DNA from: the human T2T-CHM13v2.0 reference genome, Homo sapiens | Assembly (NCBI RefSeq): GCF_009914755.1 | Contig: NC_060928.1 | Length of the DNA stretch: 64,000 nucleotides | Direction: 5' to 3' (one strand) | In this document: piece by piece, positions 22,545 to 63,607 of the stretch | Layout: each line of letters starts with the position of its first letter | How positions within the stretch are numbered: position 1 is the stretch's first letter | Notes under the pieces: model-generated | The model's database searches: none | What the model saw: only the letters and a program-made list of their open reading frames with translations | What the model was told of the DNA's origin: nothing | Made by a program: the position numbers and the translations under genes

Positions 22545-23050
22545 TAACCTAAATACAAGCCTAAACATGACCAGACCCGAACCCCTGACCCTGACCCCAC
22601 CCCTAATCCTGACCCTAACCCTAAACCCAACCCTAACCCTAAACCTAACCCCTAACTCTGACCCTACCCCTAATCCTGACCCTAACCGTAAAACCAACCC
22701 TAACCCTAACCCCTAATGCTGACCCTAACCCTAAATCCAGTCCTAACCCTGACTCTAACCCTAACCCTGACCCTAACCCTAAAACCCAACCCTAACCCTA
22801 ACCCTGACCCTAACCCTAAACCCAACCCTAACCCTAGACCAGACCCTAACCCCTGACCCTGACCCCACCCCTAATCCTGACCCTAACCATAAACCCAACC
22901 CTAACCCTAACCCCTAATGCTGACCCTAGCCCTAAACCCAGTCCTAACCCTGACTCTAACCCCTAACCCTGACCCTAAACCTAAACCCAACCCTAACCCT
23001 GACTCTGACCCCTAACCCGACCCCTGACCCTAACACCGACCCTTAACCCT
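22545..23050 (+). repeat. Degenerate interstitial telomere-like array (CCCTAA/CCCTGA/CCCAA variants)
   Basis: About 500 bp of ccctaa, ccctga and cctaaa units with an internal ~270 bp higher-order duplication. Confidence 0.95.
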
Positions 23051-23399
23051 GCCGGGAGGGCGCTCAGTCCCGGCTCCCACAAAGGACAGCAGCACCCGTA
23101 CTGGACGGCACCCCCGGAGGGACCCGGGCCTGAGGACTCTGCTGCTCCAGCGCCCCAGCTCACGATCGTCCAGGACCCGTCGGGTCCCTCAGCACAGCGC
23201 GGCCCTGTCGCTCTCCTGACCACGCCCCTCATGGCCCCGCCCTATGCCTCGCCCCTGGCCCTCGCGCCCCGCGGCTCCCTCCGCCGAGTCCAGGCCCGAC
23301 GCGCCTGCGCCCTCTGAACACGCCCCTCCCCGCCCCTATCCCCACCCCTTACCGCCTGGCCCCGCCCACGCCCCTTGCCGCGGGGTGGGAGCCCAGACG

Positions 23400-23596
23400 C
23401 ACACCGCGCATGCTCCGAGCGCGGCGCCCCCGACGCGGCGCTCGGCTCGGCTCGGGCATTTCCGCCTCTTTGTTTTAAACTCCGGACGGGCTTTTTTCTC
23501 CTCCTCTTGGGGGGGACCCAGAGGGAGCGGCGCCCCCTCCCCCCTCCGGCGCGGACCCCGCGTGCGCCTTGCTCGCCCGCAGCCCCGAGACCGCAG
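23400..23596 (+). other. PCGF3: PCGF3 non-coding exon 1 (start approximate)
   Basis: Donor CAG|GTCAGT at 23596 with an overlapping +4 donor TCA|GTGAGT; lies in the CpG island upstream of the PCGF3 CDS. Confidence 0.7.
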
Positions 23597-30559: not shown

Positions 30560-31220
30560 TGGGTCCCGTTGGCCTTGTGGGTCTTATGGGGGCTGTGAGC
30601 CTCGTGGGAGCTGTGGGCCTCATGGGGGCTGTATGGCCTTGTTGGGGGCCTGTGGGGCCTGTGGGCCCTGTGGGGGGCTGTGTACCTCCTGGGGGCTGTG
30701 GCCAAGTGGGTCCTATGTTCTTCGTGGGTCCTGTGTGGTCTGGTGGGGGCTGTGGCCTCGTGGGAGCTGTGGCTTTGTGAGTCCTGTGTGGCGTCATGGG
30801 GGCTGTGGCCTTGTGGGTCCTGTGTGGCCTGGTGGGGGCTGTGGCCTTGTGGGTCCTGTGTGGCCTGGTGGGGGCTGTGGCTTCATGGGTCCTGTGTGGT
30901 CTGGTGGGGGCTGTGGCCTCATGGGGGCTGTAGCCTTGTGGGTCCTGTGTGGCCTGGTGGGGGCTGTGGCTTTGTGGGTCCTGTGTGTCTCATGGGAGCC
31001 GTGGCCTTGTGGGTCCTGTGTGGCCTTGTGGGGGCTGTGGCCTCGTGGGGGCTGTGGCCTCATGGGTCTTGTGTGCCTTGTGGGGGCTATGGCCTCATGG
31101 GTCCTGTGTGGCCTGGTGGGGGCTGTGGCCTTGTGGGTCCTGTGTGGCCTCATGGGTCCTGTGTGGCCTCGTCAGGGCTGTGGCCTCATGGATCCTGTGT
31201 GGCCTCGTGGGGGGCTATGA
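30560..31220. repeat. ~36 bp G/T-rich degenerate minisatellite
   Basis: Unit gggggctgtggccttgtgggtcctgtgtggcctggt, built from ~18 bp subunits. Confidence 0.93.
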
Positions 31221-31616
31221 CTTTGTGCCTGTGTCTCCTGTCTGGGTCTTGTGAGCTGTCACATTTCCAGGTTCTTGATCAGGGCGTGGCCCGTATTAGA
31301 TGCTCAATAAACAGTAACCGGAAGCTGATCCTCATGGATGCTGTGTGGAGCTGTTCTGAGGCGGCATGAGTATGAACTTGTTGGATTCCTGATGCCGCCC
31401 AGGAATCAGACCGTAAAAGCTGTGCTTATTTCGCAGTGTGAGCCTGGCACAGCAGAGGGCGCACAGGGCAGGCATCATTGGAATGTGGGGGCCACGAGGG
31501 CTCACCTTAAAATTTTTTAAATGTTAAGTGATTTTAATTTACTTTTTTACCCAAGTTTTTGTTAAGAAAAAAAATCGCAATACAGAAAAATGGAGAAAAT
31601 TATACAGTGAGCACTT

Positions 31617-31914
31617 GCTGTGGTCCGAACGTCTGTGTCCCCCAGAATCCATGGGGGACCCTAACCCCCAAGGTGTCAGTGTCAGGCGTGGGGCCCTCGG
31701 AAGGCTCTGCCCTGATGACAGGACCAGCGCCCTTTCTGTCATTTGAGGACACGAGAGAAGGCACTGCCTGTGAGGACTCTGACCCCACCAGCCCCCAAAT
31801 CTGCGAGCGCCTTGATTCTGGACTCCCAGCCTGCAGAACTGAGAGGTGCGTTCTGTGGTTTGTCAGCTGCTCGGCCTAAGGTGCTTCGGTCGCAGCCGCC
31901 TGAACAGACCAGGA
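31617..31914 (+). mobile_element. MLT1A-type MaLR solo LTR
   Basis: tgctgtggtccgaacgtctgtgtccccc...cctaacccccaagg...gccttgattctggactcccagcct..agaactgaga. Confidence 0.75.
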
Positions 31915-32517
31915 CGGCACCCTCTACTGCCCAGACCCACTCGTGGCCGTTCGGCCGCATTTGCTTCCTCTCCTTCTCTCAGTACATCCTGGACTCACCT
32001 GTGAGCGGCTCCGGACAGGAGCCTTGCTGGGAAGGTGAGTCCCACCTGAGAGCAAGAACTAGGGGAGGCCCCCACACCGCTACAACCCCACTGTGACCCT
32101 AGGACGGTGGCACCTACTTCACGGCGTTACCTGATTTTCAGGCCGCCTTACCTCTTCCCAGCTGTCTTGAGAATGTCTCCATGTTTTCCTGAACCAGAGT
32201 CAGCCAGGGCCTGTCCTTGCCCTGGAGGTCCTGGCCCTTCTGACCATGCCAGGTGAGACCCCCTGGCGTTGGAGGTCTTGTCTCCCTGTCCGTGGACCGG
32301 GCTCGCATCCTTCCCACCCCACTGCCTTCTGCCAGGCCAGCGGAGACATAGGCCCTGACGTCCTCTTCAGTCTCAGCTGGAGAAAGCTGCCCTGGAGGGA
32401 CTCTTCTCACTAGGTCACGCAAACCTGGGCACTCCCGATTTTGAGGTAGCTTATTTGGGACCTTAATTACAGCTTCAAAAGTCCCTTTACAGCAGTCCAT
32501 GGGTCAGTATGTCAGTA

Positions 32518-35315
32518 ACAGAACTGGGCGTCGGTTCTGGGACCCTGTAGACACTGAGGGTGAGAACTGGGTGTCGGTGCTGGGACGCTGTAGACGCTGT
32601 GAGTGTGAGAACTGGGTGTCGGTGCTGGGACCCTGTAGACACTGAGTGTGAGAACTGGGCGTCGGTGCTGGGACCCTGTAGACACTGAGTGTGAGAACTG
32701 GGCGTCGGTGCTGGGACCCTGTAGACTCTGTGAGTGTGAGAACTGGGTGTCGGTGCTGGGACCCTGTAGACACTGAGTGTGAGAACTGGGCGTCGGTGCT
32801 GGGACCCTGTAGACACTGCGAGTGTGAGAACTGGGTGTTGGTGCTGGGACCCTGTAGACACTGAGTGTGAGAACTGGGTGTCGGTGCTGGGACCCTGTAG
32901 ACACTCAATGTGAGAACTGGGAGTCGGTGCTGGGACCCTGTAGACACTGAGTGTGAGAACTGGGCGTCGGTGCTGGGACCTTGTAGACACTGTGAGTGTG
33001 AGAACCGGGCATCGGTGCTGGGACCCTGTAGACACTGAGTGTGAGCACTGGGCGTCGGTGCTGGGACCCTGTAGACACTGTGAGTGTGAGAACTGGGCGT
33101 CTGTGCTGGGACCCTATAGACACTGAGTGGGAGAACTGGGCGTCGGTGCTGGGACCCTGTAGACACTGAGTGTGAGAACTGGGTGTCGGTGCTGGGACCC
33201 TGTGGACACTGTGAGTGTGAGAACTGGGTGTCGGTGCTGGGACCCTGTAGACACTTAGTGTGAGAACTGGGCGTGGGTGCTGGGACCCTCTAGACACTGT
33301 GAGTGTGAGAACTGGGCGTCGGTGCTGGGACCCTGTAGACACTGAGTGTGAGAACTGGGTGTCGGTGCTGGGACCCTGTGGACACTGTGAGTGTGAGAAC
33401 TGGGTGTCGGTGCTGGGACCCTGTAGACACTTAGTGTGAGAACTGGGCGTGGGTGCTGGGACCCTCTAGACACTGTGAGTGTGAGAACTGGGTGTCGGTG
33501 CTGGGACCCTGTGGACACTGAGGGTGAGAACTGGGCGTCGGTGCTGGGACCCTGTAGACACTGAGGGTGAGAACTGGGCGTCGGTGCTGGGACCCTGAAG
33601 ACACTGAGTGTGAGAACTGGGCGTCGGTGCTGGGACCCTGTAGACACTGAGTGTGAGAACTGGGCGTCGGTGCTGGAACCCTGTAGACACTGTGAGTGTG
33701 AGAACCGGGCATCGGTGCTGGGACCCTGTAGACACTGAGGGTGAGAACTGGGTGTCAGTGCTGGGACCCTGTAGACACTGAGTGTGAGAACTGGGCGTCG
33801 GTGCTGGAACCCTGTAGACACTTAGTGTGAGAACTGGGCGTGGGTGCTGGGACCCTCTAGACACTGTGAGTGTGAGAACTGGGCGTCGGTGCTGGGACCC
33901 TGTAGACACTGAGTGTGAGAACTGGGCGTCGGTGCTGGGACCCTGTGGACACTGCGAGTGTGAGAACTGGGCGTCGGTGCTGGGACCCTGTGGACACTGT
34001 GAGTGTGAGAACTGGGCGTCGGTGCTGGGACCCTGTAGACACTGAGTGTGAGAACTGGGCGTCGGTGCTGGGACCCTGTGGACACTGCGAGTGTGAGAAC
34101 TGGGTGTCGGTGCTGGGACCCTGTGGACACTGCGAGTGTGAGAACTGGGTGTCGGTGCTGGGACCCTGTGGACACTGCGAGTGTGAGAACTGGGCGTCGG
34201 TGCTGGGACCCTGTAGACACTGAGTGTGAGAACTGGGTGTCGGTGCTGGGACCCTGTGGACACTGAGTGTGAGAACTGGGTGTCGGTGCTGGGACCCTGT
34301 AGACACTGTGTGAGAACTGGGCGTCGGTGCTGGGACCCTGAAGACACTGAGTGTGAGAACTGGGCGTCGGTGCTGGGACCCTGTAGATACTGTGAGTGTG
34401 AGAACTGGGCGTCGGTGCTGGGACCCTGTAGATACTGTGAGTGTGAGAACTGGGCGTCGGTGCTGGGACCCTCTAGACACTGTGAGTGTGAGAACTGGGC
34501 GTCGGTGCTGGGCCCCTGTGGACACTGCGAGTGTGAGAACTGGGCGTGGGTGCTGGGACCCTGTAGACACTGTGAGTGTGAGAACTGGGCGTCGGTGCTG
34601 GGACCCTGTAGACACTGAGGGTGAGAACTGGGCGTCTGTGCTGGGACCCTGTAGACACTGAGGGTGAGAACTGGGCGTCGGTGCTGGGACCCTGTAGACA
34701 CTGAGTGTGAGAACTGGGCGTCGGTGCTGGGACCCTGTAGACACTGTGTGAGAACTGGGCGTCGGTGCTGGGACCCTGAAGACACTGAGTGTGAGAACTG
34801 GGCGTCGGTGCTGGGACCCTGTAGATACTGTGAGTGTGAGAACTGGGCGTGGGTGCTGGGACCCTGTAGACACTGTGAGTGTGAGAACTGGGCGTCGGTG
34901 CTGGGACCCTGTAGACACTGAGGGTGAGAACTGGGCGTCTGTGCTGGGACCCTGTAGACACTGAGGGTGAGAACTGGGCGTCGGTGCTGGGACCCTGTAG
35001 ACACTGAGTGTGAGAACTGAGCGTCGGTGCTGGGACCCTGTAGACACTGAATGTGAGAACTGAGCGTCGGTGCTGGGACCCTGTAGACACTGAATGTGAG
35101 AACTGGGCGTCGGTGCTGGGACCCTGTAGACACTGAGTGTGAGAACTGAGCGTCGGTGCTGGGACCCTGTAGACACTGAATGTGAGAACTGAGCGTCGGT
35201 GCTGGGACCCTGTAGACACTGAATGTGAGAACTGGGCGTCGGTGCTGGGACCCTGTAGACACTGAGTGTGAGAACTGGGTGTCAGTGCTGGGACCCTGTG
35301 GACACTGTGAGTGTG
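32518..35315. repeat. Large 43/45 bp VNTR, ~2.8 kb (~64 copies)
   Basis: Unit gagtgtgagaactgggcgtcggtgctgggaccctgtagacact(gt). Confidence 0.98.
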
Positions 35316-35325
35316 TGCTTACTTT

Positions 35326-35604
35326 TTTTTTCAGTCTTGCTTTGTCACTCAGACTGGAGTGCAGTGGCAGGGTCTCGGCTCACTGTAACCTCCACTTCCT
35401 GAGTTCAAGGGATTCTCCCGTCTCAGCCTCCTGAGTAGCTGGGACTGCAGGTGCTTCCCACCACACCCAGCTAATTTTTGTATTTATATTAGCGACGGGG
35501 TTTCACTGTATTGGCCAAGCTGCTCTCAAGCCCCTGACCTCGTGATCTGCCCACCTTGGCCTTGCAAAGTGCTGGGATTACAAGTGTGAGCCACCGCGCC
35601 CGGC
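35326..35604 (-). mobile_element. Alu at the VNTR end, TSD gtgtgtgcttacttt
   Basis: TSD copies at 35311-35325 and 35606-35620. Confidence 0.93.
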
Positions 35605-36864
35605 TGTGTGTGCTTACTTTCAAACAAGGTAGTCTCTGCAGCATACTGAGATGACATTGAGAAGAGGCTTGATAAGGTGCAGGAGGGCGTGTTCTGGGCA
35701 CAGGGCGCCCTGAGCGAGAGGGCCGAGAATGTCCTGCGGTGATTGAGGAGTCCACGCGGCAGGGGCAGAGGGAGAGGCAAAGGCAGAGGGAGGTGTGGGC
35801 TGTTGGCAGGGCCAGGGCCTGACCTCGATGGCCCTGAGGAGCCTCTGCGTCCACTCAGGCTTGTGTGTTCGGGAATCCCGTGGGTGCTGCGTTGAGGTCA
35901 GTGGGGCCTGGTGTGGCAGAGGCGAGGGTGCTGTGTGGGTGCCGCGTGTCCTTCAAGGCACAGCAGATTGGTTTCTAGGGGGGCCCAGTGTGAGGGAGGC
36001 GCAGGTGGCTCAGAGGTGTCTGGGGCTCCCTGGGGTGCAAGGCTGTCAGAGGAGGTCAGGGCAGGGAAGTCCTGATGGACGTGCCGGCCGCCCACTGACG
36101 TGCAGCCGTCAGACGTCTGGATGGGAGTTCAAAGCAGGGTTGGGCCAGAGGTGCCTGGAGAGGAAACGTGGAGTCGGGGGGTCTGTAGGGTAGCCCCGGG
36201 GGCGGCGCTGGGGGCCGGACTGCTGAAGCGCCCCCGAGCTCCCTGGGTATAACCTGCCTGGGCCTCCTGGACAGCTGCAGGCCTGCGGGGCCTGGGTTGA
36301 GGGGGATGTCACTGAGCTACACTCTGAGGCTGGTAGTGACTCTCATCTGGGGTCCCACCTTAGTGAATGTACCTTAGGTCTTTGTATGAACGCAAATATT
36401 TGTATAAACACTTAATTTAAAAAATGAGAGCTGATGTGCGCCTGTAATCCCAGCTACTGAGAAATGTCAGCCCAGCAGTGAGGCCTGTCCAGTCTCAGCC
36501 CTGTCCGTGTGAGTGCTGTGCTCTGTGTGTGGCCCCCACAGTGCCACGGTCCACGGAGGTGGGGTCGGCTGGCTCTGGCTGGGAGTTGGGGGCCCAGTTG
36601 CTCTAATGCAGGCAACACCCTGAGTGGGGCTGGGAGTCAAGGACCAGGCTGGGGGCTCGATGTCACAGGTGTGGGCAGGAGCCCATGGCCCTCTGAGAGC
36701 TTTGTGGCCACGGTAGGGGCTGGGCCATGGGGGAGGCAACTTTACTGCCTGGGGTCAGTTCCTGCCTGGCCAGAGATGGAGCAGGGATGCTTACTGTCTT
36801 TCGAGTCATGGACCCTTTTGAGAATTAAATTCAAAGCGCTGTCATGTTGTAGCATTGTTTTTCA

Positions 36865-37180
36865 TTTTCTTTTTTTTCTTTTTTCTTTTTTTAATTTTTT
36901 GAGTTAGAGTCTTGTGCTGTCACCCAGACTGGAGTGTAATGGCACTATCTTGGCTCATTGCAACCTCTGCTATACAGGTTCAAGCATTTCTCCTGCCTCA
37001 GGCTCCTGAGTAGCTGGGACTACAGGCACGTGCCACCATGCCCGGCTATTTTTTGTATTTTTAGTAGAGACGGTGTTTCACCATGTTGGTCAGGCTGGTG
37101 TCGAACTCCTGACCTTGTGATCTGCCTGCCTGGGCCTCCCAGAGTGCTGGGATTACAGGTGTGAGCCACCTCACCCGGCT
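36865..37180 (-). mobile_element. Alu
   Basis: Reverse-complement dimer. Confidence 0.95.
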
Positions 37181-38154
37181 GTTTTTCATTTTCTTAAAAA
37201 AACTTTTAGGGTGACATAGCTGTGCAGAGAACCATGTAAAGTTCCGTTTTCCTCCTAACCTGGTCGTCTCCAGCGGGAAGGAACAGAGAGTGCTTGGTGT
37301 GGTTCTGTGTGTCCGCACGAGGTTGATGAGAACCCTCGGTGCCTGGACTGTCTTCTCACCAGGCGCAGCTCAGGAACATGGTGGTGCCGGAGAGTGGTTT
37401 GTGTCTGTTCCTCCCTGGCTGCTGTGAGCCGCCCCCCCAGGTCCTGTGTCCTCCGCGCGGGTTGGCGAGGGAGCTGTGTGTGTCTGTGGTGCAGCTGCAA
37501 TGCGGGGTCCCGTCAGGGAACAGGAGCGAGGCGTTTACGCCATAAGGAGGTGGAGAAGGGATGGTGTGTGAGTTTGGCAGGTGCTGAGGGCTACAGTGGA
37601 GCTGGAGGGGCAGGACGGTGCAGGGCGGTGCAGGCAGGGTGTTTGGGGTCAGGCCAGCTGTGGAAAGGCCACAGGTGAACCAGGTGCGGAGACAAAGAGC
37701 TGGAGGCATCCGGTGGTCTGGCTGGGCCTCATCCGTGTCCTGCCGCTGCTGCAGTGATGCCAGGGGCATGGAAGGGACCCTAGCCCAGCTCCTCCCTTGG
37801 CAGTCGGAGCGTCGGGGCCGCATTATAGAGGGAGGGACTCTCCGGACGATGGGAACGAGAGTCCATTGGGATCGTAGCTGTGGTGCGGTTCACAGCGTTG
37901 TGAACAGCTAATGTTGGGCTGGGGGCATCTGTGGGGCCAGTTGCAGCAGTTTGGTCATTTTTGTGTGAAAATAAATGAAAACAGGTTTTGCAGAGCCCGT
38001 TGGTGAAGGCAGGGGTGCCTCTGGCATCGACTGGATGGCCTTTCCCTCCTGAGTGACAGCCCTGGACGTGCTGTCGCCTCATGAGGACGCCGATGTGGCC
38101 CTGCTGCCGGAGTATGCCAAGCACGAGGGGCCAGGTGGCACACAGCACCTGTGT

Positions 38155-38302
38155 GCCGCTGGGGAGGGTGACCGCGGGAGGAGCGCCCGTGCATCGCTGC
38201 AGAGGGTGACTGCGGGAGGAGTGCCCGCCCATGCATCGCTGGGGAGGGTGACTGCGGGAGGAGCGCCTGTGCATCGCTGTGGAGGGTGACTGTGCAGGAG
38301 GA
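38155..38302. repeat. ~38-42 bp repeat, ~3.5 copies
   Basis: gagggtgactgcgggaggagcgcc(c/t)gtgcatcgctg. Confidence 0.85.
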
Positions 38303-38474
38303 CAGAGTGCCACAAGGGAGAGCAGCAGAGTGGTTTCAGCTCCGGGAGGTGGGGCTGCCCGTCCAGAGAGGTGCAGGGTCTCTTGTCAGGTGGACAGGGG
38401 CTGGCCCACCCGTGAGTGGGTAGGGCCTCCTGCCAGGGAGCCTTGTGCATGGCTGGGAGGACGGCAAGGCTGAT

Positions 38475-38702
38475 GTGGACGCAGCCCCGACGTGAACAGG
38501 ACCCCACGTGGACGGGCAGTGACGTGCGTGTGGACCCGGGGTGGACGGGCGGTGACGTGCGTGTGGACCCGGGGTGGACGGGCGGTGACGTGCGTGTGGA
38601 CCCGGGGTGGACGGGCGGTGACGTGCGTGTGGACCCGGCGTGGACGGGCGGTGACGTGCGTGTGGACCCGGCGTGGACGCAGCCCCGACGTGAATGGATG
38701 TG
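38475..38702 (-). repeat. 33 bp CpG-rich minisatellite, ~5 copies (left arm of an inverted pair)
   Basis: Unit gtggacgggcggtgacgtgcgtgtggacccgg(g/c). Confidence 0.95.
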
Positions 38703-39597
38703 GTTCCGACGTGACTGCGCTGGCATGGGAAGCAGAGGGTGAGGCTCGGCTCTGCTGTCAGGAGGACATGTCAGACTTCTGTCTCTAAGATACTGCTCAG
38801 ACTTGTGTGGAGGGTGAATTAGTGCGAGGGCGGCTTGGAGAAGCCTGTCCTGGGCGGGTTTCACCACTTGGACGGGAGCTCTGGCATGGTCCAGGGAGTG
38901 GCCGAGGACAGCAAGGAGGAGATGACCCCATGGGCAAGCAGGAGCTCAGATGGGAGGCATGGAGCAGACGGGACTCCACGTGGCACCACCCCTCCCACCT
39001 GGGCTGGGCACCCATGAGGCTGAGGACCCTGGGGAGGGAACGCTGCTTGTCGGGCGGTGGTGACGATTTCATGGATGTTTGTGAAACCAACCTCACTGCC
39101 CCATTACAACAGTGCGGGCCCTGATTCTCATGGTTCCCCAGTGAGGCTGTTCCACGGTGGCACAGGACACGCCTGCAGCTTTGTGCCTGTGAATCTCAGG
39201 AGCTGTTTTCTGGAAAGTTCCATAACTCAGCAAAACTGACTCACAAACAACAGAAACTTCAAGGCTGTCCTAAGATATGGGTGGCAGAAGAAAATGTGCC
39301 CCAGGCATGGGCTTGTGATGCCGGCTCTTCCTCCTGGCAGAGCTCCCCAGAGGAAGGCTGGGCTGGGCAGTCAGCCAGACGGGAAAGGGGGCTGAGGCGT
39401 CCAGGCTGCAGAGGGTGCCGGGGTGGAGAGCGGAAGAGAGAGGGAGTCGGTGCCTTAGGAGGCTGCGGGCGAGGCGAGGGCAGAGTGCACTCGCTGGGGG
39501 TCACCCTGCCCCCCAGGACTCCTTTCACAGGACAGAGAAGCTCCTGGTGAGCGGGGCTGCTGAACGCAGGCCCCAGGGCCTGTAGGACCCTTAGGGA

Positions 39598-39942
39598 GAC
39601 GGGTGGCTCTGCGTGTGGGTGTGGAGAGAGGCCTGTGGGAGACGGATGGATGGGTGTCTCTGTGTATGGGCATGGGGAGGGGCCTGTGGGAGGTGGATGG
39701 GTTGGGTGGCTCTGTGTATGGGCATGGGGAGGGGCCTGTGGGAGGTGGGTGGATGGGTGTCTCTGCATGTGGGTGTGGAAAGAGGCCTGTGGGAGACTGG
39801 TGGATGGGTGGCTCTGCGTGTGGGCGTGGAGAGAGGCCTGTGGGAGGTGGGTGGACATGTGTCGCTGCATGTGGGTGTGGGGAGAGGCCTGTGGGAGGTG
39901 GATGGGTTGGGTGGCTCTGTGTGTGGGCGTGGAGAGGCCCGT
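39598..39942. repeat. ~50 bp G-rich minisatellite, ~7 copies
   Basis: gaggcctgtgggaggtgggtggatgggtggctctg(c/t)gtgtgggtgtgga. Confidence 0.92.
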
Positions 39943-40408
39943 GGCAGCTCCTTCGTTGCAGAAACCGCATCGGAGCACATCGCGTAGTGCAGGACACACG
40001 GGGCGTGGGACGGTGTCTGTGTGAGAGCAGCATCTGTGTGTATGCAGTGTTATCTAAGGACACACCCACAGACACGGACACGTCCTTACGCAGAGAACAG
40101 CCGCTGCCTCTTAGTGTTCAGGATGATACGTTTTTCCTTAATATCATCCTTCGCTTTGCACATCATACTGAATACGTGTGTATGTGACTTTTACTGCAAA
40201 ACAAAACAAAAAGCAGAAGCTACTGTGTTATCCAGACGGCTGTGTGCTGCAGGCGCGACTCAGAACAGCAGCTCCTCCCAGCATCCCGCAGCTAAATGAC
40301 AGGAGCTGGAGGCTGCCCCAGGCAGCGGCGTGGCTGGCGTGCGGAGTGTTTTGGGGGTGTCTGAGCTGGGTGGAGAGGAAGGCATATGTCACACTGAGGC
40401 ATCAGAGA

Positions 40409-41115
40409 CACATCCATTCACGTCGGGGCTGTGTCCGCGCCGGGTCCACACTCAGTCATCGCCCGTCCGCGCCGGGTCCACACTCAGTCATCGCCCGTCC
40501 GCGCCGGGTCCACACTCGCGTCATCGCCCGTCCGCGCCGGGTCCACACTCAGTCATCGCCGTCCGCGCCGGGTCCACACTCGCGTCATCACCTGTCTGCG
40601 CTGGGTCCACACTCGCGTCATCACCTGTCTGCGCTGGGTCCACACTCGCGTCATCGCCCACCCACGCCGGGTCCACACTCGCGACATCGCCATCCACGCC
40701 GGGTCCACACTCGCGTCATCGCCATCCACGCCGGGTCCACACTCGCGACATCGCCATCCACGCCGGGTCCACACTCGCGACATCGCCATCCACGCCGGGT
40801 CCACACTCGCGTCATCGCCATCCACGCCGGGTCCACACTCGCGTCATCGCCATCCACGCCGGGTCCACACTCGCGACATCGCCCGCCCGCGCCGGGTCCA
40901 CACTCAGTCATCGCCCGTCCGTGCCGGGTCCACATTCGCGTCATCGCCATCCACGCCGGGTCCACACTCACGTCATCGCCATCCACGCCGGGTCCACACT
41001 CGCGTCATCGCCCACCCGCGCCGGGTCCACACTCGCGTCATCGCCGTCCGTGCCGGGTCCACACTCAGTCATCGCCGTCCGCGCCGGGTCCACACTCGGT
41101 CATCGCCATCCGCGC
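40409..41115 (+). repeat. 31-33 bp CpG-rich minisatellite, ~21 copies (right arm of the inverted pair)
   Basis: Unit cgccgggtccacactc(gc/a)gtcatcgcc(cg/a)tcc(a/g). Confidence 0.95.
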
Positions 41116-42472
41116 GGGGATGTGTCTGAAAAGTGTGGTGAGAGCTGTGTTCCCTGCGCATTTCTGAAGGCTCCTAGCCGCTGCAGTTGCCGGGAGCCAT
41201 GGAGCCACGTGACCTTGAGGTCCACCGGGGAGAGGAGGGTGCATTTCGGAGGCTAGAAGTGGCACCTGGAGGGGCTGGCCCTGGGTGTGATCATTGAGAG
41301 GAGGGAGGTGGAAAAAGATCTGGAAGATGCCCTTGGGAAGCAGAAGAAGGTGGGTGACCAGAGTGGGGTGCCCAGAGGGTAGGGCAGGGCAGACCAGAGG
41401 AGGGGGTGGGCTTGGCACCCCCGGGAAGGAGGGATGGGGCTCTGTGAAAGTGAGAGCTGTGTGGACGTGGAGCTTGTGAGTCTGACCAGGAAAGACAGAG
41501 GGTTCCAGACGGTGCGGGGGCCCCTTCAGTCTGGTTGTGTGGGGCAGGGTCCTCACCCCCAGGTGAGGGGGCCTTGTAGGGCAGATTCCTGGAAGACCCT
41601 CAAGACGCAGGAGCGGAGGCTGCTGGCTGGATGGGGATGGAGCCGAGAGCTGAGCGGGCAGCCCAGGCCTGAAGGACAGCACAGGGGCCTCTGTGAGGCC
41701 AGGAGGGGCTGGAGTGCAACACCCCCTGTGACCCAGGTCTGGTGTGTGACGCGTCAGGCCCCACGGCACCGCAGGCTGGCTGGCTCCCCAGAAGGCCTGT
41801 GGTCTCCATGGCCGCAGCGCATTCCGGGGACAGGGCAGAGTGGAGTCAGCAGAGGGAGGAGGCGTGTGGGGCGTCCAGGGATCAAGGGGTCTCTGGGCCT
41901 TGCTCCCTTCCCCAGCAGCTGTGAGGATGGTGGGGGCTGCTGTCTGCCCAGGACTGCAAGCGTCAGGCACAGCAGCTGCTGTTAACAGTCAAGGAATGTT
42001 CGGGTCAGTTTGAGAACTTCAGGGCCCAATGGCAGAGCCCCGGCAGAAAGACTCAGGGCAGATGGTGGTTGTCAGCCGGGAGGGGGCACGGAGCCCTGGG
42101 GGTGGTCAGGCCCACGTGGCCTTGGGACGAGAGCGAAGAGGTGGGATCGGCTGCGGGAGACAGGGAAGTGGGTGACAAGGAGGCTCAGGGGCTACAGCAA
42201 AGGCCCCGGAGGCTTTTCCACACCCGAGTCCGTCCTCGGCCATGCCAGCCAGGTCAGGGGCTCAGTCCTGTGGGCCACCACAGCCGGCCGCACAGGCAGG
42301 GAAGGTGAAGCTCCACGGAGCACCCTGGTGGACAGCGGTGCTGTGGGGGCCATGGACCAGAAGGCGGAGCCCATGCTGTGGGCTGGGTGGGGTGGCAGCT
42401 GCCAGTTCAAAGTCTGTCTTTTGTTTATTTACTTCATAAAATACTCCAGGTGTTTTGTTAGAAATTATTCTT

Positions 42473-53923: not shown

Positions 53924-55080
<1,157 letters not shown>

Positions 55081-61461: not shown

Positions 61462-62476
61462 GTGAGTGCCCTGCGTGCCCATCCAGAAGCCCCGGGAATC
61501 CCCTGCATGAGGCCTTTTCTTAAAGAGCTGGCGCTGTCTGCCGGCCCCTCCCACACGCACTCACGGGAGAACGTGGGGGAACCTGAGGGTGTGGGGCGGT
61601 TAGGGTTCAAGGCGTTCCTCCTCACTCCTGGTACCAGTGGGAACGTGGGCAGAGGGGAAAAGCCAGCAGGGGAGAGCAGGAGGGCCCCCCGAGAGTGTCT
61701 GGGGGGCAGAGGTCAGGGTTCAGAAGGCCTGTGGAAAGAGTAGTGGAAGGTGAACTTCCTGAGACTTCACTTGGCTTGCTTTACTGTAAAATGGCAAAAT
61801 AATGGTTTGGTTTCTGTGTAAAGGGAATGGTATGTTGAAATCTGAGGGTATCACAACAAACGTTCATGTCTTGAGGACATTTTATTTTCCTAATGGACCA
61901 CACCAACTCTTAGGAAATGTTTAGGCTCCTCCGGGCGTCTGTGACAGTTGGAGGGTGGGAGGGGCCTGGCTCTGTCACCCCCACGGCTTTGCGGGTCCCA
62001 GGAAGCACAGCCATGAGGCGTGGTTAGGAAGCGAGTCTGGGAACCAAGCAGTCCTGTCAGAACCCTTTTACCTGAGGGGAAGTTTTCATTTTAAAAGCGG
62101 TGTTGAAACAGTGGATTTTTAGGAGAAGGCTTTCAGATCGAGGGGCTGATGTGGTCAGCACTGAGCAGCTCCGGGCGGGCCTGGCCATGTGGCCAGTGCG
62201 GAGCGTGTCTGTGTCCCACGCCGGCTCCGGCTGCCCCGTCTCTGTCTCCTGTGCTCCCCACGCCTGCACCCCACAGGCCCACACGCCCGTTCTGCATCCT
62301 GGGGAGACCCCTGCAGACACTTTGCGGACGGCTTTCCTTTGACGCTTACTCCGCTCCGGGGGTCCAGAGTCTCTTAATGGAGTGAATTTTTGACGGCATT
62401 TGGAGTACAGTGTAGTTTTTTAAATGGCTTGACAGTTTGGATTTCATGGTGCGCTATGTTCTGTTTGTGCTAAAAG

Positions 62477-62565
62477 GTGAAACCAAAGCAGACGACAGTT
62501 CAAACAAAGAGGCCGCGGAGGAGAAGCCGGAGGAGGACAACGACTACCACCGCAGCGACGAGCAG
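62477..62565 (+). CDS. PCGF3: PCGF3 coding exon (GETKADDSSNKEAAEEKPEEDNDYHRSDEQ); CDS continues right of the window
   Basis: aaag| acceptor, CAG|GTGGGC donor; cumulative 462 nt = 154 codons. Confidence 0.95.
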
Positions 62566-63154
62566 GTGGGCGGGGCCCGGGGGTCGCTGCAGTGTTAGTG
62601 CTCGCCGTGGAGGCGTGAGCAGGTGGGCGGGGCCCCGGGGTCGCTGCAGTGTTAGTGCTCGCCGTGGAGGCGTGAGCAGGTGGGCGGGGCCCCGGGGGTC
62701 GCTGCAGTGTTAGTGTTCGCCGTGGAGGCGTGAGCAGGTGGGCGGGGCCCCGGGGTCGCTGCAGTGTTAGTGCTCGCCGTGGAGGCGTGAGCAGGTGGGC
62801 GGGGCCCGGGGGTCGCTGCAGTGTTAGTGCTCGCCGTGGAGGCGTGAGCAGGTGGGCGGGGCCCCGGGGTCGCTGCAGTGTTAGTGCTCGCCGTGGAGGC
62901 GTGAGCAGGTGGGCGGGGCCCCGGGGTCGCTGCAGTGTTAGTGCTCGCCGTGGAGGCGTGAGCAGGTGGGCGGGGCCCCGGGATCGCTGCAGTGTTAGTG
63001 CTCGCCGTGGAGGCGTGAGCAGGTGGGCGGGGCCCCGGGGGTCGCTGCAGTGTTAGTGCTCGCCGTGGAGGCGTGAGCAGGTGGGCGGGGCCCGGGGGTC
63101 GCTGCAGTGTTAGTGTTCGCCGTGGAGGCGTGAGCAGGTGGGCGGGGCCCCGGG
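62560..63154 (+). repeat. 57-58 bp VNTR (~10.4 copies) that starts inside the exon and repeats its 5' splice site
   Basis: gagcaggtgggcgggg at 62560, 62617, 62674, 62732, 62789, 62846, 62903, 62960, 63017, 63075 and 63132. Confidence 0.97.
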
Positions 63155-63607
63155 CCTCCGGGACACTCCTGTATTAGTGCTCCTGTAATAGTGCAGTCCT
63201 GGGAGCACCGAGGGAGGGCTCACACCAGAAACCTTCCCTGGGGATGAAGGGAAGCAGTGACAGCCAGCACCCAAGGGCTGCTGTTTTCTTCCTCCCGACT
63301 TCTTCCTTTTTCTTTTTTTTTTAATTACCAGAGGAACACGTGCTTAGGGTAAAGCATGGCAGATATAAAACATGGCAGGTCAGCGGCCGGCTCTGGCCTC
63401 AGCCCCATGGCCCACGTTTTGTGCCTTTTCCTCCGGGCGCGTCTCTGTGCTCCGTGAATGTTACGTGAAAGAAAGTAAAGCCTGGCAGTGTGTTGAAAGG
63501 AAAGTGAGAGTGAACGTCGAGGGCCTCTTCGTGTGTCATTTACTGTATTACCAGATGAAGACAGAAAAACTACACGGTCACAGAGATGCAGTAAAAGAAT
63601 TTGATGA

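What the first reader, a model, noticed from the sequence alone, without database searches (positions are those of the whole stretch)
62560..63154. Splice-donor VNTR: 11 identical 5' splice sites after a PCGF3 coding exon, all but the first behind an in-frame stop
Seen: the 57-58 bp unit begins with the last 6 exonic nt, so GAGCAG|GTGGGC is present 11 times. Read-through from the exon gives VGGARGSLQC-TAG (stop at 62596-62598). Each unit also has CAG and TAG upstream of its donor, so short pseudo-exons are conceivable. Known: a premature stop upstream of later junctions triggers NMD, and the PCGF RAWUL domain lies C-terminal. Inference: copy number could act as a rheostat for PCGF3 (PRC1.3) dose by competing for U1, or the G-runs (hnRNP H/F sites) may enforce use of the first, rather weak donor.
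Basis: partly seen in the sequence, partly recalled or inferred. Interest (0 to 1): 0.8.

Follow-up and report, generated by a model that had tools for sequence, protein, structure and literature searches.

The report
Repeated splice donors after PCGF3 exon
A highly variable 57-base minisatellite starts six bases inside a PCGF3 coding exon and so copies that exon's splice donor many times; the same layout is known from F7, CBS, IFI6 and ABCA7, where the extra donors mostly stay silent.

Summary
Window 62560-63154 holds a 57/58-bp tandem array of 10.4 copies. Its first unit begins 6 nt before the end of PCGF3 coding exon 8, so GAGCAG|GTGGGC occurs 11 times. Read-through gives VGGARGSLQC-TAG.

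The array is far from monomorphic. A 2026 preprint table lists this exact motif at a mean of about 26 copies (SD about 10) in humans and about 26 (SD about 7) in chimpanzees. That table labels the repeat "cds", which reflects only a 6-nt overlap with the exon.

The layout is a described class: a minisatellite whose first monomer spans an exon-intron border. Examples are F7 IVS7, CBS IVS13, IFI6, LMNB2, PDGF and ABCA7. In F7 minigenes only the most upstream donor was used. Changing the monomer number (1-6 and 8-12) or mutating the G triplets did not change that choice. In ABCA7, retention of one unit did not depend on array length.

My best reading is a fast-mutating GC-rich minisatellite whose later donors are silent pseudo-sites, with any leak going to NMD. 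A copy-number rheostat is unsupported here but untested for PCGF3. I file it as a new member of a known kind, of modest interest.

The parts
62457..62476 (+). T-rich tract and AG acceptor of PCGF3 exon 8
   Evidence: Read directly (tgttctgtttgtgctaaaag before 62477). The exon start comes from the hub annotation.
62477..62565 (+). PCGF3 coding exon 8 of NM_006315.7, 89 nt, ending in phase 0
   Evidence: Hub annotation. The translation is continuous with the upstream coding parts. The exon is 70% purine with 8 GAA/GAG triplets and no G-run of 3 or more.
62563..62571 (+). Annotated (most upstream) donor CAG|GTGGGC, cut after 62565
   Evidence: Hub annotation. U1 duplex energy -10.3 kcal/mol, tied 7th-8th of 25 donors in the window.
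62560..63154 (+). 57/58-bp minisatellite, 10 full units plus a 23-nt partial unit. The first unit holds the last 6 exonic nt and 51 intronic nt.
   Evidence: GC 0.738, 62 CpG (observed/expected 0.88) and 33 G-runs. In the own-genome search all 5 matches lie in this array (a lower-bound search). The motif is identical to row TR1334497 of the preprint table.
62596..62598 (+). First in-frame TAG on read-through; it recurs in every full unit
   Evidence: Frame 0 of the unit holds TAG, frame 2 holds TGA and frame 1 is open.
62617..63143 (+). Ten downstream copies of the donor (pseudo-sites), with 12-mers starting at 62617, 62674, 62732, 62789, 62846, 62903, 62960, 63017, 63075 and 63132
   Evidence: Each has 3 G-runs and 2 GAR triplets in the 57 nt upstream, against 0 and 7 for the first donor.
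63155..63200 (+). Degenerate end of the array: a diverged continuation of the last unit (…TGTATTAGTGCTC…) with a 7-nt insertion
   Evidence: Alignment A1. TRF also finds a 14-bp, 2.1-copy repeat at 63166-63194.

Best explanation
This is a hypervariable GC-rich minisatellite that grew out of the exon 8 / intron 8 border of PCGF3. Its unit includes the last 6 exonic bases, so every unit carries a copy of the 5' splice site. Only the copy that adjoins the real exon is used; the others are silent intronic pseudo-sites. The most likely mechanism is the one shown for F7 IVS7. There the splicing machinery, working from the defined exon, takes the most upstream functional donor, and the later identical sites do not compete, whatever their number. 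The purine-rich, G-run-free exon upstream of donor 1, against G-rich 'would-be exon' upstream of donors 2-11, may add to the bias. Any rare use of a later donor would add 57n nt with a TAG, and the transcript should go to nonsense-mediated decay. The large length variation reflects a high mutation rate and not tuning of PCGF3. Shown here: the anatomy, the stop codon and the downstream RAWUL exons. Taken from print: the polymorphism and the behaviour of the analogous arrays. Inferred: silence of the pseudo-sites in PCGF3, the mechanism of donor choice and the neutrality of the variation.
For: Anatomy. RefSeq lists no PCGF3 exon with an alternative end after 62565 among its 10 transcripts (hub table). 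Only exon 8's donor is reiterated: 11 copies within 1.5 kb either side, while each of the other 7 in-window PCGF3 donors occurs once. The neighbourhood is dense with minisatellites: 15 arrays cover 9524 of 40543 bases of the PCGF3 part of the window, so one array touching an exon is not surprising. Precedent, F7 (passages; whole sections): a 37-bp monomer spans the border, the donor is TGG/gtgggt, only the most upstream site is used, the pseudo-sites work once the upstream ones are mutated, 1-6 and 8-12 monomers give the same choice, G-triplet mutations have no effect, and no masking structure was found. ABCA7 (passages): a 25-bp VNTR includes the exon 18 donor, and the one-unit-retention isoform was not affected by VNTR size. 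Among the cases named, pseudo-sites are used in CBS (31 bp; size), ABCA7 (25 bp) and IFI6 (monomer size not given in what I read). They are not used in F7 (37 bp), PDGF (81 bp) or LMNB2 (100 bp). PCGF3's 57-bp unit falls on the silent side of that small sample. Human and chimpanzee means are nearly equal, 25.7 and 26.0 copies, with large variance in both.
Against: No RNA data were available, so silence of donors 2-11 in PCGF3 rests on annotation and analogy. NMD would also hide leak products from annotation. [quoted passage not shown] In IFI6 and CBS two pseudo-sites are used, and in ABCA7 one is. ABCA7 array length does change skipping of the next exon, so length can matter by other routes. 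The preprint authors read the same diversity as compatible with balancing selection.
Confidence: 0.68

Rival explanations
1. Dose rheostat: more donor copies divert more PCGF3 pre-mRNA into stop-containing, NMD-degraded products or sequester U1, so array length sets the PRC1.3 dose.
For: Every later donor leads to an in-frame TAG. RAWUL is encoded downstream. Alleles differ widely, with an SD of about 10 copies. The donor is of medium strength, so occupancy could be limiting.
Against: F7 minigenes with 1-12 monomers showed no change in donor choice. ABCA7 one-unit retention was independent of length. All observed alleles are already long (mean about 26 copies), and extended exons exceed 300 nt from the fifth donor on, so added distal copies lie outside the usual reach of exon definition (recalled principle). 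No extended exon appears in RefSeq (hub table).
Confidence: 0.08
2. Array length matters through routes other than donor choice, as reported for ABCA7: skipping of the next exon, intron retention, slower elongation, or DNA-level effects of a CpG-rich array with one GGGCGG per unit.
For: ABCA7 VNTR length raised exon 19 skipping. The array is 74% GC with CpG observed/expected 0.88 and 11 GGGCGG cores. Other PCGF3-region VNTRs are strong expression QTLs in published tables, so the gene does respond to nearby repeat variation.
Against: Nothing specific to this array was found. There is no CTCF-like match (0 of 131 window matches lie in the array). The only canonical G-quadruplex motif sits at the 3' edge, and there is no full GC box. 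This locus was not seen in the VNTR-eQTL tables I could search, and those searches were incomplete.
Confidence: 0.15
3. The first donor is enforced by sequence context and not by position: exonic purine-rich enhancers next to donor 1, and G-runs (hnRNP H/F sites) acting as intronic enhancers for donor 1 and as exonic silencers for donors 2-11.
For: The 57 nt upstream of donor 1 hold 7 GAR triplets and 0 G-runs. Upstream of each later donor there are 2 GAR triplets and 3 G-runs. The position-dependent action of G-runs is recalled knowledge.
Against: In F7, mutating the G triplets or deleting monomers did not alter the choice. When upstream sites were mutated, the next pseudo-site was used although its context is pure repeat.
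Confidence: 0.2
4. The diversity is kept by long-term balancing selection on PCGF3, as the preprint suggests.
For: The locus is classed 'low_both', meaning low divergence relative to diversity in both species.
Against: The authors themselves note that high mutation rate plus stabilizing selection gives the same pattern. Their 'coding' premise fails, because only 6 nt of the array are coding. The window is full of similar arrays.
Confidence: 0.07
5. The repeat is protein-coding, as labelled 'cds' in the preprint table.
For: The array overlaps the coding exon by 6 nt. One of the three unit frames is open.
Against: The exon's own frame meets TAG after 10 codons in every unit. The annotated exon ends at 62565 (hub table). 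Length alleles would truncate the protein before the RAWUL domain.
Confidence: 0.02

Closest known systems
F7 intron 7 minisatellite (37 bp, 5-9 copies; Borensztajn et al. 2006, PMC1557585)
   Same: The first monomer spans the exon-intron border (4 exonic nt there, 6 here). The donor copies are identical and have a similar intronic part (gtgggt there, gtgggc here). The array is polymorphic, and the later copies are annotated or observed as unused.
   Different: F7 has far fewer copies and a much narrower allele range. F7 was tested in 50 minigenes, whereas PCGF3 is untested. Some F7 pseudo-sites would keep the reading frame, while every PCGF3 one meets a TAG.
ABCA7 intron 18 VNTR (25 bp, about 12-427 copies; De Roeck et al. 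2018, PMC5954066)
   Same: A GC-rich, very polymorphic VNTR that includes the exon's donor. Use of the next copy gives a premature stop.
   Different: The ABCA7 unit starts at the GT and not inside the exon. One-unit retention and a length effect on exon 19 skipping and disease risk were measured there. Nothing comparable is known for PCGF3.
CBS exon 13 / intron 13 31-bp VNTR (c.1444_1467+7, 16-21 copies)
   Same: The unit spans the border (24 exonic plus 7 intronic nt) and the array is polymorphic.
   Different: Most of the CBS unit is exonic. Two pseudo-sites are reported as used (from the introduction of PMC1557585; I did not see the primary papers).
IFI6 (6-16) intron 2, LMNB2 and PDGF junction-reiterating minisatellites
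   Same: The exon-intron junction is reiterated in the intron (introduction of PMC1557585).
   Different: IFI6 constitutively uses two pseudo-sites. LMNB2 (100 bp) and PDGF (81 bp) use only the authentic site. I did not read the primary papers.

Membership tests
Junction-spanning minisatellite with reiterated 5' splice site (F7 / CBS / IFI6 / ABCA7 type) | A tandem array whose first monomer spans an annotated exon-intron border | tested here: met
   The array starts at 62560 and the exon ends at 62565 (hub annotation).
Junction-spanning minisatellite with reiterated 5' splice site (F7 / CBS / IFI6 / ABCA7 type) | The donor sequence is repeated unchanged in the following monomers | tested here: met
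   11 of 11 units carry GAGCAG|GTGGGC.
Junction-spanning minisatellite with reiterated 5' splice site (F7 / CBS / IFI6 / ABCA7 type) | Copy-number polymorphism in the population | tested here: met
   Not measurable from one assembly. It is met through print: row TR1334497 has the identical motif, with human mean 1467 bp (variance 340435) and chimpanzee mean 1484 bp (variance 157424).
Junction-spanning minisatellite with reiterated 5' splice site (F7 / CBS / IFI6 / ABCA7 type) | Physiological use of the most upstream donor only, or of it plus one or two next copies | not testable with these tools
   No RNA data. RefSeq lists no alternative end for this exon (hub table), which is weak evidence because NMD substrates are rarely annotated.
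Junction-spanning minisatellite with reiterated 5' splice site (F7 / CBS / IFI6 / ABCA7 type) | Pseudo-sites are functional when the upstream copies are inactivated | not testable with these tools
   This needs minigenes or patient variants.
NMD-coupled dose control by alternative 5' splice sites | Measurable use of the stop-introducing site, responsive to a regulator or to genotype | not testable with these tools
   Only the stop codon and the downstream exons could be checked.
CTCF-binding or G-quadruplex VNTR | A CTCF core or a G3+N1-7 x4 motif in each unit | tested here: not met
   0 of 131 CTCF-like matches (3 mismatches or fewer) fall in the array. One G-quadruplex motif is found, and only at 63140, the 3' edge. 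The motif definitions are recalled.

The most novel reading that the evidence does not exclude
Array length, which ranges over tens of copies in both humans and chimpanzees, quantitatively sets PCGF3 (PRC1.3) output. This could act through leak into stop-containing transcripts or through effects on intron 8 processing, with the variation kept by selection. PCGF3 would then be a Polycomb gene with a naturally tunable dose.
Probability: 0.08. Interest if true: 0.65.

Novelty: new member of a known kind. Interest (0 to 1): 0.3.

Why it matters
PCGF3 defines PRC1.3, so a common length polymorphism at its exon 8 donor would matter if it changed dose. The nearest tested analogues say it probably does not.

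Two practical points follow. First, the published 'coding' label for this repeat, and the balancing-selection reading built on it, should be corrected. The repeat is an intronic array that overlaps the exon by 6 nt. Second, with about 26 identical donors 57 nt apart and a uniform stop codon, this locus is a larger natural test of the upstream-first rule for 5' splice site choice than F7 (5-9 copies). It also stands against in-vitro work in which identical strong donors default to the downstream site.

Tried and rejected
1. RNA structure masking the later donors. Local unpaired probabilities for the 9-nt donor were 0.0046 for donor 1 against 5.5e-5 to 0.015 for donors 2-11 (window 150, span 100). 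They were 0.00027 against 7.8e-5 to 0.0015 (window 300, span 200). Donor 1 has no advantage, so this idea was rejected.

2. Motif scans; all motif definitions are recalled.
- CTCF-like motif: no match in the array.
- Jeffreys minisatellite core with up to 3 mismatches: 0 of 7 window matches lie in the array.
- PRDM9 13-mer: no exact match and only 2 one-mismatch matches in the array region. The list was cut before this region.
- Canonical G-quadruplex: only at the 3' edge, and no full GC box.

3. Pseudo-exons. The AGs within a unit have 45-55% pyrimidine upstream and would give 24-30 nt exons. I judged them unlikely.

4. Published QTL tables.
- The spl-TR supplements give one PCGF3 row, an AC repeat elsewhere (file 1 was not searched).
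- adVNTR gives one PCGF3 row, a 28-bp UTR repeat.
- danbing-tk 2021 shows PCGF3 eVNTR rows at hg38 chr4:789886. In the one stretch of the locus list that I saw, rows jump from 742102-742290 to 782024 (files cut when stored).
- The 2023 tables show PCGF3 rows at 789886 and 736451 (only the first passages per file are shown).
- My coordinate search of those 2023 files is void. A control with a coordinate known to be present also returned nothing, so tab-separated columns do not match such phrases. Whether this array was tested there stays open.

5. Literature searches for PCGF3 with VNTR, tandem repeat plus splicing, nonsense-mediated or minisatellite found no paper on splicing at this array.

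Full report
**What is there.** The sequence at 62300-63500 shows PCGF3 coding exon 8 (62477-62565, hub annotation). It is followed directly by a tandem array. Tandem Repeats Finder gives 62560-63154, period 57, 10.4 copies, 97% matches.
- The 12-mer GAGCAG|GTGGGC occurs 11 times in the window, all in the array. Shuffles expect 0.04, and 0 of 100 reach 11.
- Spacing is 57 nt, except for two 58-nt units.
- The first unit consists of the last 6 exonic bases and 51 intronic bases.
- The coding parts up to 62565 sum to 462 nt, so the exon ends in phase 0. Read-through gives VGGARGSLQC and then TAG at 62596-62598.
- The TAG recurs in all 10 full units. A second frame holds TGA and the third is open.
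- After the last partial unit the sequence continues as a diverged copy with a 7-nt insertion, as at the worn edge of a minisatellite.
- In a search of the window's own genome, all 5 matches to the unit lie inside this array. That tool scores only the best candidates, so this is a lower bound.

**Is the identity of the donors meaningful?** The units differ at only four positions: one C/G, one extra G, one G>A and one C>T. The chance that none of four variable sites falls in a 9-nt donor is about 0.5. Eleven identical donors therefore show homogeneity of a young or fast-turning array and not selection on the donors.

**Context.** The window is packed with GC-rich minisatellites. 19 arrays cover 10438 of 64000 bases, and 15 of them cover 9524 of 40543 bases in the PCGF3 part. 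The hub places the window at 0.68-0.75 Mb of chromosome 4. The clustering of hypervariable minisatellites near chromosome ends is recalled knowledge. Of the 8 PCGF3 donors in the window, only exon 8's is reiterated. It has 11 copies within 1.5 kb either side, and the other 7 occur once each.

**Polymorphism is in print.** A 2026 preprint (Adam, Rocha, Sudmant, Rohlfs; 10.64898/2026.01.20.700717 = PMC13308034) covers this locus. I saw its abstract, sections 7 and 27, and rows of its supplementary spreadsheet found by search.
- Supplementary Table S3 row TR1334497 carries a 57-nt motif identical to the TRF consensus. It has feature 'cds' and category 'low_both'.
- Human mean length is 1467.3 bp with variance 340435. 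Chimpanzee mean is 1483.9 bp with variance 157424.
- That converts to 25.7 copies (SD 10.2) in humans and 26.0 (SD 7.0) in chimpanzees.
- The CHM13 allele of 595 bp lies 1.5 SD below the human mean.
- The decimals fit 89 human alleles and 43 (or 86) chimpanzee alleles.

The array therefore predates the human-chimpanzee split and is hypervariable in both species. The 'cds' label comes from the 6-nt overlap. In the exon's frame every unit has a stop, so the repeat cannot be coding.

**The layout is a known kind.** Borensztajn et al. 2006 (PMC1557585; I saw the abstract, passages, and sections 10 and 12 in full) treat exactly this class: minisatellites whose first monomer spans an exon-intron border, so that the donor is reiterated in the intron.
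- Their introduction lists IFI6/6-16 (25 pseudo-sites, the two nearest used) and CBS intron 13 (15-20 repeats, two used).
- It also lists LMNB2 (100 bp x 10-15, authentic site only) and PDGF (81 bp x 16-18, authentic site only).
- Their own model is F7 intron 7 (37 bp x 5-9, TGG/gtgggt).
- In 50 minigenes only the most upstream functional donor was used.
- The pseudo-sites became active one after another as the upstream ones were mutated.
- Constructs with 1-6 or 8-12 monomers behaved alike.
- Mutating the G triplets changed nothing, and no masking structure was found.

De Roeck et al. 2018 (PMC5954066, passages) describe the ABCA7 intron 18 VNTR (25 bp, about 12-427 copies), which includes the exon 18 donor. 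Retention of one unit occurs and gives a premature stop, but it did not depend on VNTR length. Length did raise skipping of exon 19. The CBS 31-bp VNTR is written c.1444_1467+7(16_21) in PMC2630376 (passages).

**My own tests of mechanism.**
- Donor strength: pairing with the recalled U1 5' end gives -10.3 kcal/mol, tied 7th-8th of 25 annotated donors in the window. This is medium and not weak.
- Accessibility: donor 1 is not more open than donors 2-11.
- Context: the real exon is 70% purine with 8 GAA/GAG triplets and no G-run. The 57 nt upstream of each later donor hold 3 G-runs and 2 such triplets. That asymmetry fits a context model (recalled: exonic G-runs silence, intronic ones enhance), but the F7 experiments argue that such elements are not needed.
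- Extended exons would measure 146, 203, 261, 318 ... 661 nt in this allele.
- RAWUL-coding pieces lie at chr4:759123-759209 (model positions 1-30, 31.8 bits, just under the 33.5-bit cut-off for a lone exon). A second, weak piece lies at 762774-762851 (E 5.2). These sit about 14 kb downstream, so a protein truncated at the repeat would lack that domain, and further junctions lie beyond the stop. NMD is then expected by the recalled 50-55 nt rule.
- AG dinucleotides inside a unit have no pyrimidine tract (45-55% Y) and would give 24-30 nt exons, so pseudo-exons are unlikely.

**Counter-evidence kept in view.** Hodson et al. [quoted passage not shown] Upstream-first choice is therefore not a universal rule, and PCGF3 has not been tested. 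NMD would hide leak products from annotation. IFI6, CBS and ABCA7 do use one or two pseudo-sites.

**Verdict.**
- The stop codon, NMD and RAWUL reasoning is sound.
- The array is highly polymorphic.
- The proposed copy-number rheostat and the G-run enforcement have no support here and run against the closest tested analogues.
- The locus is a new member of a known kind, and its polymorphism is already in print under a misleading 'coding' label.
- In the library searches made no paper treats splicing at this PCGF3 array.
- Supplements I could not search properly, or that were cut or unsearched, may still hold QTL results for it.

Noticed in passing
window 30796-41256 (+), LOC124900172: The predicted protein-coding model LOC124900172 has 951 of its 1374 coding bases inside minisatellite arrays. 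Its exon 3 donor 9-mer occurs 44 times within 1.5 kb either side. It looks like a gene model assembled from VNTR sequence rather than a real protein gene.
   Followed up: partly
window 22575-23051: A degenerate interstitial telomere-like array, (CCCTAA)n, about 26 copies of an 18-bp period at 73% match. It ends about 400 bp upstream of the annotated PCGF3 start at 23458.
   Followed up: no
window 54382-55077: A 51-bp minisatellite in PCGF3 intron 5. By eye its consensus matches, with one mismatch, the motif of the hg38 chr4:736451-737199 VNTR. Lu et al. 2023 list that VNTR as a very strong PCGF3 expression-associated motif in whole blood (P 4.5e-61).
   Followed up: partly
window 23458-64000: Minisatellites cover 23% of the PCGF3 part of the window (15 arrays, 9524 of 40543 bases). 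One array starts 147 bp after the exon 1 donor and another lies 267 bp from exon 6.
   Followed up: partly
preprint 10.64898/2026.01.20.700717, Supplementary Table S3 row TR1334497: The row labels this repeat 'cds' and the text calls it coding. Only 6 nt overlap the exon, and the exon frame hits TAG in every unit. The locus is therefore a mislabelled intronic array in that catalogue.
   Followed up: yes
window 62560-63154: TRF also reports a higher-order period of 229 bp (four units, 2.6 copies, 98% match). The variant units (CCCG, CCCC or an extra G) recur in a loose four-unit pattern, which suggests expansion by multi-unit blocks.
   Followed up: no
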